A stretch of 63,474 nt of DNA, from positions 1 through 63,474 of the forward strand of contig JBBSXB010000006.1 in the NCBI GenBank assembly GCA_038046005.1, read 5' to 3'. Position 1 is the stretch's first letter. Every line of letters starts with the position of its first letter. The notes under the pieces were generated by a model that ran no database searches, had not been told where the DNA came from, and saw only the letters and a program-made list of their open reading frames with translations. Source of the DNA: Nanobdellota archaeon. Lineage in GTDB: Archaea; Nanobdellota; Nanobdellia; Pacearchaeales; GW2011-AR1. Below are positions 62,034 through 62,882 of this stretch, one piece after another. The position numbers and the translations under genes are program-made.

Positions 62034-62336
62034 ATGGACCCAAATTTTGTTCAAAAGAGGATGCAGGAAATTCAGAGCAATCAAGGATTTGTTGATGCTT
62101 TTTCTAAAATAGTTTCTGGAAAATCGGGATATAAAGCCGTCATTGAAAAAAAAGTGGTGATGATAAAATGTACTGGATGCTCAAAAATTCTTGAGGGAGA
62201 AATAAAATTCTGTCCGGAGTGCGGAACAAAAGTTTGGGTAAAGCCGGTCAATTGTCCAAAATGCACAAAGCCTGTCGCTGATGATGACAAATTCTGCCAA
62301 GAATGCGGGGAGAATTTAAGTCCGCCTGGAAAATAA
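62034..62336 (+). CDS. Double zinc-ribbon protein
   Basis: CTGC..KFCPECG; CPKC..KFCQECG. Confidence 0.85.
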   Translation: MDPNFVQKRMQEIQSNQGFVDAFSKIVSGKSGYKAVIEKKVVMIKCTGCSKILEGEIKFCPECGTKVWVKPVNCPKCTKPVADDDKFCQECGENLSPPGK

Positions 62337-62874
62337 AATTAGTGTTATTTCTAAGTAGTTACAAAGGGAAAGATTTAAATATACTCTTTGTACTTTAAAA
62401 TTATGAACCAAACTCTATTTAAACAAGCTAGAGAAAATGATTTTTTTAGAAAGAAGTATATTGATACAATTCCTTTAGGAGAAAATTCAAAATATGTTTT
62501 TTCTGTGGAATATTCCCAACACAACCTTTCAGATAACAAAACTATTGCAGCTACTTCAAGTATAGCTCCGGGAATAACATTACTTGGAGTCCCAAGAATT
62601 CCTTCTGTAATAACCTTCTATCCAAGAGCTTTTGAAAGTGAGATAATTGAAGTAGAACATGATTTTTTATTGTGTTTTGACCATGAATTAAGACATGCTT
62701 GGCAAAAATATTGCCATCCAATTGCATATGTAACAAGAAATAAAGCTGAGAAAGATGCTTTATCATACGAACTTCAACAAGTCAGAGATGGAAAAAGAAG
62801 TCCTTCACAAACATACTTAGATTCTAGAATTAGGAAATTAGAAGATTTAGAAAATTTAAGTCCGCCTGGAAAAT
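62313..62874. repeat. Perfect 22-bp direct repeat (62313-62334; 62853-62874), 540-bp spacing
   Basis: AATTTAAGTCCGCCTGGAAAAT occurs twice. Confidence 0.92.
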
Positions 62875-62882
62875 TGGGTTAG
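62403..62882 (+). CDS. Putative zincin-like metallopeptidase ORFan
   Basis: DHELRHAWQ (HExxH) plus downstream E..A; ends in duplicated ENLSPPGK. Confidence 0.6.
   Translation: MNQTLFKQARENDFFRKKYIDTIPLGENSKYVFSVEYSQHNLSDNKTIAATSSIAPGITLLGVPRIPSVITFYPRAFESEIIEVEHDFLLCFDHELRHAWQKYCHPIAYVTRNKAEKDALSYELQQVRDGKRSPSQTYLDSRIRKLEDLENLSPPGKLG

What the first reader, a model, noticed from the sequence alone, without database searches (positions are those of the whole stretch)
62310..62882. 540-bp promoter-plus-gene cassette with a perfect 22-bp target duplication at a gene end
AATTTAAGTCCGCCTGGAAAAT ends the zinc-ribbon gene and recurs at the end of the next, unrelated HExxH ORF, so both proteins finish in ENLSPPGK. 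The unit between repeats is exactly one promoter (carrying the shared ORFan motif) plus one ORF, whose stop codon lies just outside the second repeat. This is the clearest and youngest-looking example of single-gene insertion without a mobility gene.
Basis: partly seen in the sequence, partly recalled or inferred. Interest (0 to 1): 0.7.

Follow-up and report, generated by a model that had tools for sequence, protein, structure and literature searches.

The report
Single gene inserted at a gene end
A small archaeal genome carries one extra protease-like gene, with its own promoter, wedged into the last codons of a zinc-ribbon gene and flanked by a duplicated copy of that gene's end; this is a real scar of gene gain by recombination, not by a transposon.

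Summary
AATTTAAGTCCGCCTGGAAAAT occurs exactly twice in the 874-kb genome, 540 bp apart. It ends a double-zinc-ribbon (DZR) gene and lies near the end of a 159-aa HExxH ORF. Independent contigs span both copies, so it is not a misassembly. The same-genus genome G001 has the DZR gene without the unit. None of 21 family representatives carries the ENLSPPGK tail. The closest one stops exactly where copy 2 begins.

The reading needs correction in three ways.
- The repeat is a 41-nt imperfect duplication: 22 exact nt, a 4-nt block of differences, then 11 of 12 nt. It covers the old stop codon and 3' flank.
- Copy 2 matches the sister's gene end (KLG* against KLS*). Copy 1 ends K*, as more distant homologues do.
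- There are no inverted termini, attC, transposase or integrase, no second copy, and no flanking repeat at 28 comparable promoter-led ORFs or 11 other indels.

I read it as a one-off recombination or repair junction. Timing and polarity are unresolved; the sister's site may be a precise excision product.

The promoter belongs to a conserved module of about 45 nt, found in 135 of 401 genomes of this archaeal family upstream of unrelated, mostly unannotated genes. All three copies in the two congeneric genomes sit at edges of lineage-specific segments.

The parts
62034..62336 (+). Double-zinc-ribbon (DZR) gene, 100 aa, ends ...CGENLSPPGK-TAA
   Evidence: One search gives the ORF. PF12773, E 1.8e-15; orthologues are widespread in the family.
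62313..62334 (+). Repeat copy 1 (exact 22-mer). It holds the last 7 codons of the DZR gene plus the T of its stop.
62335..62350 (+). Right-hand extension of copy 1: AAAA + TTAGTGTTATTT. It supplies the AA of the TAA stop, keeps an in-frame TAG, and overlaps the distal part of the cassette promoter.
   Evidence: It differs from copy 2 at 5 of 16 positions, 4 of them adjacent.
62339..62379 (+). Extended promoter module: distal T-rich element, GTAGTTACA, N4, then GAAAGATTTAAA (BRE/TATA). The ATG lies 23 nt downstream, a spacing I read as leaderless (inference).
   Evidence: The family-wide consensus is TTGTTGTTTCTTTATAGTAGTTACAAATAGAAAGATTTAAA.
62403..62882 (+). 159-aa HExxH ORF, a stand-alone zincin-like protein. 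The native part runs to about residue 151; the last 8 codons (LSPPGKLG) plus TAG come from the displaced DZR gene end.
   Evidence: invariant R16, H94, E95, H98, E116; pLDDT 94 overall, 66 for the last 9 residues. Searches give the fold neighbours.
62853..62874 (+). Repeat copy 2 (exact 22-mer), read in the same frame as in the DZR gene
62875..62890 (+). Right-hand extension of copy 2: TGGG + TTAGTTTTATTT, with the TAG at 62880-62882. It is collinear with the sister's gene end (CTGAGTTAG) and downstream promoter.
   Evidence: window 62849-62911 aligns to G001:C8:503-451.
62897..63201 (+). Next unit: promoter GAAAAGTTTAAA (62897-62908), ATG 23 nt downstream, and an 89-aa ORF with no family. G001 has an unrelated 65-aa ORF in this place behind an alignable promoter.
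63274..63474 (+). Conserved leader or promoter region of the rRNA operon; the contig ends here. It is 94% identical to G001. In three relatives the homologous spacer abuts the 5' end of 16S rRNA.
51438..52394 (+). Second window-specific segment led by the same promoter module (GTAGTTACA at 51445). It holds two ORFs (88 and 198 aa, no Pfam family) and has no flanking repeat.

Best explanation
A one-gene unit sits inside the last codons of a conserved double-zinc-ribbon gene. The unit is a promoter of a family-wide class plus a 159-aa zincin-like HExxH ORF. The site lies just upstream of the rRNA operon of an 0.87-Mb archaeal genome, whose closest database relatives are labelled Nanoarchaeota.

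The unit was joined to the chromosome by a single illegitimate recombination or repair event: a microhomology or template-switch type duplicative insertion. This was not a transposase or integron reaction. The event duplicated the terminal 22-41 bp of the zinc-ribbon gene, including its stop and a few 3' bases.

The incoming ORF has no stop of its own at the junction. It therefore reads 8 further codons (LSPPGKLG*) through the displaced copy of the gene end. The zinc-ribbon gene now stops at a TAA formed at the left junction.

The two repeats are substrates for homologous recombination. The site without the unit in the congeneric genome G001 is therefore either the never-occupied state or a precise excision product. 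In the second case G001's odd KLS extension would be the footprint.

Shown:
- the anatomy of the junctions;
- the empty site in G001;
- the non-native tail of the ORF;
- the absence of transposon and integron features;
- that the event is a one-off among comparable units.

Inferred:
- the type of joining reaction;
- the timing of the event;
- the direction of change in G001.
For: Repeat and anatomy.

Assembly continuity: records 13 and 21 (1,073 nt, 0 differences across both copies).

Empty site: in G001:C8 the orthologue (88% identical...ESLSPPGKLS*) is followed directly by the next promoter. The HExxH protein was found in 0 of 40 relatives, G001 included.

Tail is not native: none of 21 other family representatives has it, and none of 11 genomic homologues does. 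P0002 ends at the residue aligned to N151, the first codon of copy 2. The last modelled helix ends at residue 151, and pLDDT falls from above 94 to 66 for the last 9 residues.

No mobile-element features:
- The best 12-mer match between the termini is 8-9/12, reached or exceeded by 128-198 of 200 shuffles.
- Single-strand DNA folds of the cassette 3' end have z +1.26 and +1.37.
- There is no Pfam, NCBIfam or PHROG family for the ORF.
- The two PF00589 genes of the genome are on other contigs, C4 and C11.
- The unit is single copy.

One-off event:
- Of 12 clean window-specific segments relative to G001, only this one has a flanking repeat longer than 10 nt.
- Of 28 complete ORFs led by the same promoter class in other genomes, none has a repeat longer than 9 nt. 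One further 16-nt hit, at a 12-aa ORF (L080), comes from overlapping search windows.

Microhomology at the right junction: GAAAAT (cassette) against GAGAAT (gene) immediately precede and enter the repeat.

History of the two copies: in the 6 nt after the 22-mer, copy 2 (TTGGGT) differs from G001 (CTGAGT) at 2 positions. Copy 1 (TAAAAT) differs from each at 4. A stop directly after the final K is the state in the next relatives: P0025 ...SPPGK, P0026 ...MPPQK, and G520 ...GPPK-TGA.
Against: - The joining chemistry cannot be read from one junction pair. No donor sequence, circle or second insertion was found.
- The difference pattern between the copies (0 of 22, then 5 of 16) is uneven. My arithmetic gives about p = 0.009 if the 5 substitutions are independent. 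A simple in-situ duplication then needs a secondary 4-nt block change. A recombination with a diverged homologous copy (rival 1) explains this pattern more directly.
- Copy 1's extension also fits part of the distal element of the promoter class: it matches TGT in register, and up to 10/12 against class members. Some of the similarity between the two extensions could therefore be promoter-class similarity and not duplication.
- Polarity is not settled. No outgroup has the gene in the same orientation next to the rRNA leader.
- All run data were contigs, which drop rare variants, so population-level empty sites or circles could not be seen.
Confidence: 0.45

Rival explanations
1. Campbell-type integration, or homology-facilitated illegitimate recombination, after the G000/G001 split. 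Incoming DNA, either a small circle or a fragment from a relative, already carried the HExxH gene fused to a diverged copy of the zinc-ribbon gene's 3' end of the K-stop type. A single crossover inside the 22 identical bases put the foreign end onto the resident gene (copy 1) and left the resident end behind the insert (copy 2). This is how prophages that integrate into gene 3' ends behave.
For: - It explains directly why identity is perfect for 22 nt and then drops to 11 of 16.
- It explains why copy 2 plus its flank is collinear with G001, while copy 1's extension gives the K* ending seen in P0025 and P0026.
- A G001-like species co-occurs in the same runs at similar depth (records 10, 14, 18, 22), so related donors are at hand.
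- Two tyrosine recombinase genes exist elsewhere in the genome.
Against: - It needs an earlier, unobserved event that fused the ORF to a zinc-ribbon gene end in another lineage.
- No integrase lies in or beside the unit.
- No close relative of the HExxH gene exists anywhere searched. The best is 36% identity in 1.84 billion representatives. Only the protein itself was found in the 5.8-billion set, and nothing in IMG/VR.
- The extra TTATTT shared by both extensions but missing in G001 is easier to explain by an in-situ duplication.
Confidence: 0.3
2. Remnant of a larger integrated element, such as a virus or plasmid with an integrase. The element used the zinc-ribbon gene end as its att site and has since been deleted down to one gene between attL and attR.
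For: - Direct repeats made of the 3' end of a target gene are the usual att signature.
- The ORF is in-frame with the remnant, as an internal deletion could produce.
- Small zincins of the SprT, IrrE and ArdC kind are common on mobile elements. This is recalled knowledge; ArdC and a viral IrrE-like cluster do appear among the weak neighbours.
Against: - There is no integrase fragment or other element gene in the 540 bp.
- The family has no PHROG or PADLOC match: best E 0.0037 and 0.0022, each in 1 of 22 members.
- The ORF ends exactly at the family's native C-terminus, which a random internal deletion would rarely give.
- In two genomes of another family, G298 and G424, the gene follows an ORF ending ...GGMPPMM and precedes a homologous MFFKKK... 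ORF. That looks like stable chromosomal context. My reading of the first neighbour as a thermosome subunit is from memory and was not tested.
Confidence: 0.1
3. Transposition of a non-autonomous element, MITE-like or casposon-like, that makes a target-site duplication.
For: There are flanking direct repeats with a sharp left edge, and a unit of compact size.
Against: - There are no terminal inverted repeats.
- The unit is single copy in the genome.
- The repeat is 22-41 nt long and imperfect.
- None of 28 units with the same promoter class shows a flanking repeat.
- No transposase family was found in the flanks examined.
Confidence: 0.05
4. Integron-type gene cassette, or an assembly artefact at a shared 22-mer.
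For: Integrons are reported in archaeal genomes, Nanoarchaeota among them (PMC9668308, passages read). The site lies 600 nt from a contig end.
Against: - There is no attC-like imperfect palindrome.
- The unit has its own promoter, and no intI is adjacent.
- The structure is reproduced by k=31 Logan contigs in two runs and by a separate assembly.
Confidence: 0.03

Closest known systems
Prophage integration into the 3' end of a protein gene with an element-borne replacement end (E. coli e14 / phage 21 in icd).
   Same: Foreign DNA sits inside the last codons of a conserved gene. The gene stays intact with slightly altered terminal codons. The displaced original end remains as a direct repeat at the far junction.
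   Different: Those elements are many kilobases long and encode their own integrase next to the att site. Here the whole insert is 540 bp with one zincin-like ORF, and the displaced end has become the ORF's terminator.
Integron gene cassettes, including archaeal integrons (PMC9668308; passages seen)
   Same: Single-ORF units are added one behind the other downstream of a fixed point. The cargo is mostly of unknown function.
   Different: There is no attC. The unit carries its own promoter. There is no adjacent intI. The repeat is a piece of the neighbouring gene's coding sequence.
IS / MITE target-site duplications
   Same: A direct repeat of target sequence flanks an insertion.
   Different: There are no inverted termini. 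The unit is single copy. The repeat is 22-41 nt long and not exact beyond 22 nt.
Microhomology-mediated template switching (MMBIR/FoSTeS) and homology-facilitated illegitimate recombination. General knowledge; only a search listing was seen.
   Same: Both are one-off insertions with short microhomology at a junction and a duplicated stretch of the target beside the insert.
   Different: These mechanisms are described mainly from bacteria and eukaryotes. Nothing here tests the enzymology. The donor sequence is unknown.
Minimal stand-alone zincins: SprT/Wss1/SPRTN, M48, IrrE/M78, selecase-type minigluzincins, TTHA0227
   Same: The family has HExxH plus a downstream invariant Glu. The predicted fold's best neighbours are all zincins: Z 6.8 to 2ejq and 6mdx, Z 5-6.4 to BepA, YbeY, ArdC, Wss1 and selecase. 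The Atlas neighbours are SprT-like and M48.
   Different: No Pfam, NCBIfam or PDB sequence match was found. Foldseek gave no hit at E <= 0.001. Z values below 8 are in the range the tool calls common.

Membership tests
Transposable element with target-site duplication (IS/MITE) | Terminal inverted repeats at the ends of the insert | tested here: not met
   the best 12-mer match between the termini is 8-9/12 under three boundary models. It was reached or exceeded by 128-198 of 200 shuffles.
Transposable element with target-site duplication (IS/MITE) | Transposase in the element, or several copies mobilised in trans | tested here: not met
   the only ORF of 60 aa or more in the sense frame is the zincin-like one; the repeat and the ORF are unique in the genome.
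Transposable element with target-site duplication (IS/MITE) | Short exact duplication of the target | tested here: inconclusive
   the repeat is exact for 22 nt but continues as an 85% identical 41-nt repeat, longer than I recall for any IS family.
Integron gene cassette | attC imperfect palindrome at the 3' end of the cassette | tested here: not met
   single-strand DNA folds of 62790-62900 have z +1.26 and +1.37; no local inverted repeat was found there. No attC covariance model was available.
Integron gene cassette | Adjacent integron integrase and attI | tested here: not met
   the only two PF00589 matches are on contigs C4 and C11. Whether either carries the IntI-specific insertion was not tested.
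Integrative element with att site in a gene 3' end | Direct repeats consisting of the target gene's 3' end at both junctions | tested here: met
Integrative element with att site in a gene 3' end | Integrase encoded within the element | tested here: not met
   the unit is 540 bp with one ORF and no recombinase domain.
Zincin metallopeptidase fold (for the ORF) | HExxH with a third metal ligand downstream, conserved in the family | tested here: met
   H94, E95, H98 and E116 are invariant in 22 of 22 sequences.
Zincin metallopeptidase fold (for the ORF) | Structural similarity to solved zincins | tested here: inconclusive
   the top 20 hits are nearly all zincins, but Z is only 5.1-6.8; the best Foldseek E is 0.083.
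Double zinc ribbon (PF12773) (for the target gene) | Pfam model above gathering score | tested here: met
   57.2 bits against a cut-off of 27.3.

The most novel reading that the evidence does not exclude
In this archaeal family, genes travel as 'promoter-led cassettes'. A conserved module of about 45 nt (TTGTTGTTTCTTTATA-GTAGTTACA-AATA-GAAAGRTTTAAA, ATG 23 nt downstream) heads unrelated, mostly unannotated genes. These genes are gained and lost as single units in intergenic spacers without any element-encoded mobility gene. The 62.3-kb locus would be the one case where the joining reaction left a legible scar. The sister genome's KLS extension of the zinc-ribbon protein would be the footprint of a precise excision through that scar.

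The module would then be more than a regulon signal. It would be part of what makes these genes exchangeable, for example as a shared recombination or priming site.
Probability: 0.15. Interest if true: 0.7.

Novelty: new variant of a known kind. Interest (0 to 1): 0.45.

Why it matters
Ultra-small archaeal genomes of this kind are full of lineage-specific genes of unknown origin. How such genes enter a streamlined genome with almost no mobile elements is poorly understood.

This locus gives a base-resolved example of a single gene joined to the chromosome:
- the occupied and the unoccupied site are both available;
- a gene end is duplicated;
- the ORF has borrowed its terminator from the neighbouring gene;
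- there is no transposase or integrase.

The locus also led to a family-wide promoter module that marks unrelated accessory genes. In the one congeneric pair available, that module sits only on presence/absence segments. If that link holds, gene turnover in these organisms becomes testable.

Taken alone, the 540-bp event is an ordinary product of illegitimate recombination and is modest in interest.

Tried and rejected
- Chance: rejected.
- Misassembly: rejected.
- Viral origin: the HExxH protein and the 22-mer gave no hit in IMG/VR. PHROGs and PADLOC gave only single weak hits.
- Pfam, NCBIfam and PDB-sequence assignment of the ORF gave nothing usable. The NDUFB10 rows at E of 0.02 or more are noise.
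- RNA genes: Rfam and tRNA scans of the locus found none.
- Homology of the 89-aa ORF to G001's 65-aa ORF: no BLASTP alignment.
I used the genome search instead.
- Degenerate 18-nt scan of genome contigs for the zinc-ribbon gene end: the pattern was too loose. That scan is spent.
- Population variants: only contigs were available. The one joint skipping the region (62332 to 63274, records 14 and 22) carries 7 differences in 78 nt, exactly as G001 does. It is therefore the sister species, not an empty-site allele of this organism. No circle junction was seen, but contigs cannot show rare forms.
- Literature: two searches found nothing describing this locus type or the promoter module. One used integrons/archaea/gene cassettes/attC. 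The other used DPANN/genomic islands/hypervariable/Nanoarchaeota. No search was made for the motif string itself. Supplements were not consulted.
- The adjacent LigD 3'-phosphoesterase gene is noted, but I attach no mechanistic weight to it.
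Full report
**Context.** The window is a whole contig (C6) of an 874,611-base, 15-contig genome rated 98% complete. GC is about 33%. Sources name the closest database relatives of its proteins as Nanoarchaeota MAGs. The finding lies 600-1,100 nt from the contig's right end.

**The observation.**
- The 22-mer occurs at 62313-62334 and 62853-62874, and nowhere else in the genome with up to 3 mismatches. No shuffle of the window gave two matches.
- Copy 1 closes a 100-aa double-zinc-ribbon gene, 62034-62336 (PF12773, E 1.8e-15).
- Copy 2 lies in frame near the end of a 159-aa ORF, 62403-62882, which carries HELRH.
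- Between the copies there is one BRE/TATA promoter and this one ORF.
- The zinc-ribbon protein ends ENLSPPGK. The ORF ends ENLSPPGKLG.

**The repeat is longer than 22 nt.**
- The repeat finder extends it to 41 nt at 85% identity.
- After the exact core, copy 1 reads AAAA-TTAGTGTTATTT and copy 2 reads TGGG-TTAGTTTTATTT.
- Both copies keep an in-frame TAG at the same place. Copy 1 has an earlier TAA, formed by its last T and the next two bases.
- Matches of at least 11/12 to the copy-1 12-mer occur at 1.6e-5 per position in this genome. The extension is therefore not background.

**It is not an assembly artefact.**
- Logan contigs of 1,073 nt in runs X5 and X6 cover 62255-63327 without a difference.
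- The metagenome contig L004 is identical over 11,072 nt.
- The protein collection records the ORF on 3 contigs, the longest 185,718 nt.
- These may all derive from the same samples, so they test the assembly only.

**The sister genome shows the site without the unit.**
- G001 (same genus, 88% complete) has a contig, C8, collinear with the whole window at 74-89% nucleotide identity.
- Its zinc-ribbon orthologue is 88% identical and ends ...CGESLSPPGKLS*. It is followed at once by a promoter, an unrelated 65-aa ORF and the conserved region in which both contigs end.
- The HExxH protein was found in none of 40 relatives, G001 included.
- A 408-nt contig in X5 and X6 joins 62332 to 63274. It carries 7 differences in 78 nt, exactly as G001 does. 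It is therefore the co-occurring sister species, not an allele of this organism.

**The ORF is a real gene with a borrowed end.**
- An exhaustive HMMER search found 22 representatives at E <= 0.001, including the protein itself, with the best other at 36% identity.
- R16, H94, E95, H98 and E116 are invariant in all 22.
- With that alignment AlphaFold2 gives pLDDT 94. The last helix ends at residue 151, and pLDDT is 66 for the final nine residues.
- Structural neighbours are almost all zincins, though weakly: Z 6.8 to TTHA0227 and the SPRTN protease domain, and Z 5-6.4 to BepA, YbeY, ArdC, Wss1 and selecase. Foldseek's best E is 0.083. Atlas neighbours are SprT-like and M48.
- No homologue ends in the shared peptide. 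P0002 stops at the residue aligned with N151, the first codon of copy 2. None of 11 genomic homologues has the tail.
- The family is patchy. It occurs in 31 of 401 genomes sampled from the phylum (28 of 398 without the three unpublished genomes G282, G359 and G432). It was found in none of the 27 and 24 own-family genomes in the two samples.

**No signs of a dedicated mobile element.**
- Terminal inverted repeats are at chance level.
- The 3' end of the unit folds worse than shuffles, z +1.26 and +1.37.
- There is no recombinase or transposase in the unit or in the five neighbouring ORFs scanned against Pfam, back to 59976.
- The genome's two PF00589 genes are on other contigs.
- Nothing was found in IMG/VR.
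- Of 12 clean window-specific segments relative to G001, only this one has a flanking repeat longer than 10 nt.

**The two copies have different histories.**
- In the six bases after the core, copy 2 (TTGGGT) differs from G001 (CTGAGT) at two positions. Copy 1 (TAAAAT) differs from either at four.
- Copy 2 and its flank continue collinearly into G001's downstream promoter.
- A stop directly after the last lysine is the state in the next relatives: P0025, 83% identical...ENLSPPGK; P0026...MPPQK; and G520...GPPK-TGA.
- The KL(G/S)* extension is therefore a derived state shared by copy 2 and G001, while copy 1 has the older form.

**Three histories fit.**
- (a) The duplicative insertion happened before the G000/G001 split. 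Copy 2 then took a block change, and G001 lost the unit by recombination between the repeats, which left it the copy-2 type end.
- (b) The KLx extension arose in the common ancestor. G000 later integrated DNA that carried a K*-type zinc-ribbon end, with the crossover inside the 22 identical bases.
- (c) The insertion happened in G000 and was followed by a block change in copy 1.

History (c) needs a coincidental return to the older form. Histories (a) and (b) need about the same number of events.

**Mechanism.** The evidence points to a one-off illegitimate recombination or repair junction:
- the left edge of the repeat is sharp;
- the ORF's native end coincides with that edge;
- the microhomology there is imperfect (GAAAAT against GAGAAT);
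- the event is unique;
- no element machinery is present.

A template-switch or microhomology-mediated duplicative insertion is my first choice (0.45). A Campbell-type or homology-facilitated import of a diverged gene end is a close second (0.30).

- The cassette promoter carries GTAGTTACA-N4-GAAAGATTTAAA.
- This genome has only two such sites, at 51445 and 62355. Both lie at the 5' edge of window-specific segments.
- G001 has one, at the edge of a G001-specific 1,023-bp segment.
- With one mismatch or fewer, the pattern occurs in 135 of 401 genomes of the family. The reversed control pattern gives 2 matches.
- Thirty loci give the consensus TTGTTGTTTCTTTATAGTAGTTACAAATAGAAAGATTTAAA. The ATG lies 23 nt downstream in 20 of 30.
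- Of the 28 downstream ORFs of 60 aa or more, 24 have no Pfam family at 1e-5. Only one pair is homologous to each other.
- None of the 28 complete units (the 60-aa screen and the completeness screen keep different loci) has a flanking repeat longer than 9 nt.
- The module therefore marks a promoter class for unrelated accessory genes. Whether it has any part in their mobility is untested. Three of three sites on presence/absence segments is suggestive, but it rests on one genome pair.

**Locus context.**
- The conserved block at 63274-63474 is the leader region of the rRNA operon. Its homologue in G520, G518 and G608 lies between the zinc-ribbon gene and the 5' end of 16S rRNA.
- In those genomes the zinc-ribbon gene points away from the operon. 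In G000 and G001 it points towards it.
- The stretch between the gene and the rRNA promoter is thus a small zone of turnover. G000 holds the HExxH unit plus an 89-aa ORF, and G001 holds a 65-aa ORF.
- G001 also has an MscL gene upstream of the zinc-ribbon gene that G000 lacks.

**Verdict.** The finding is a genuine, well-resolved single-gene gain at a gene end. The event is a recombination scar, not a transposon-type target duplication, and its age is uncertain. On its own it is of moderate interest. The promoter module it led to is the more promising lead.

Noticed in passing
window 62339-62379 and 51429-51469; loci L070-L099: A promoter module of about 45 nt (TTGTTGTTTCTTTATA-GTAGTTACA-AATA-GAAAGRTTTAAA, ATG 23 nt downstream) is conserved in 135 of 401 genomes of the family, against 2 matches for the reversed control pattern. 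It precedes unrelated genes: 24 of 28 have no Pfam family, and only one pair is homologous.
   Followed up: partly
window 51438-52394: A second window-specific segment relative to G001 is led by the same module. It encodes an 88-aa hydrophobic protein and a 198-aa protein, neither with a Pfam family. It sits exactly between the stop of the upstream gene and the next promoter, without a flanking repeat.
   Followed up: partly
L053:12581-13513 (+), G001:C8: The only module-led gene of the sister genome lies on a G001-specific 1,023-bp segment. It encodes a 311-aa protein with a Sigma-54 DNA-binding domain (PF04552, E 3.1e-16). From memory, a sigma-54 domain is unexpected in an archaeon.
   Followed up: partly
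window 63274-63474; L057 1-76, L063 1-52, L067 1-303: The contig ends in the leader of the rRNA operon. In three relatives the zinc-ribbon gene lies 320-400 nt from the 5' end of 16S rRNA and is divergently oriented, whereas in G000 and G001 it is co-oriented. The gene has therefore been inverted relative to the operon in one of the lineages.
   Followed up: partly
window 61931-61947 against L006 860-1177: G001 has an MscL gene (PF01741, E 9.4e-17) between the LigD phosphoesterase gene and the zinc-ribbon gene. The window has only 17 nt there.
   Followed up: partly
whole window against G001:C8: Two congeneric genomes are collinear over 63 kb but differ by at least 12 clean window-specific and several sister-specific gene-sized segments. 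Nearly all are placed precisely in intergenic spacers and carry their own promoters.
   Followed up: partly
L026 (G223:C1:733888-737421): A homologue of the HExxH protein lies between two copies of a 79-aa plus 90-aa gene pair, with a repeat of at least 53 nt. From its size and arrangement the pair looks like a toxin-antitoxin pair; this was not tested.
   Followed up: no
window 61508-61876 (-): A stand-alone LigD 3'-phosphoesterase domain gene (PF13298, E 2e-34) lies next to the zinc-ribbon gene. No link to the insertion was tested.
   Followed up: no
runs X5, X6: A G001-like species co-occurs with this organism in the same runs at similar contig depth (about 13-17 against 18-21). Close relatives are therefore available as recombination partners.
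   Followed up: partly
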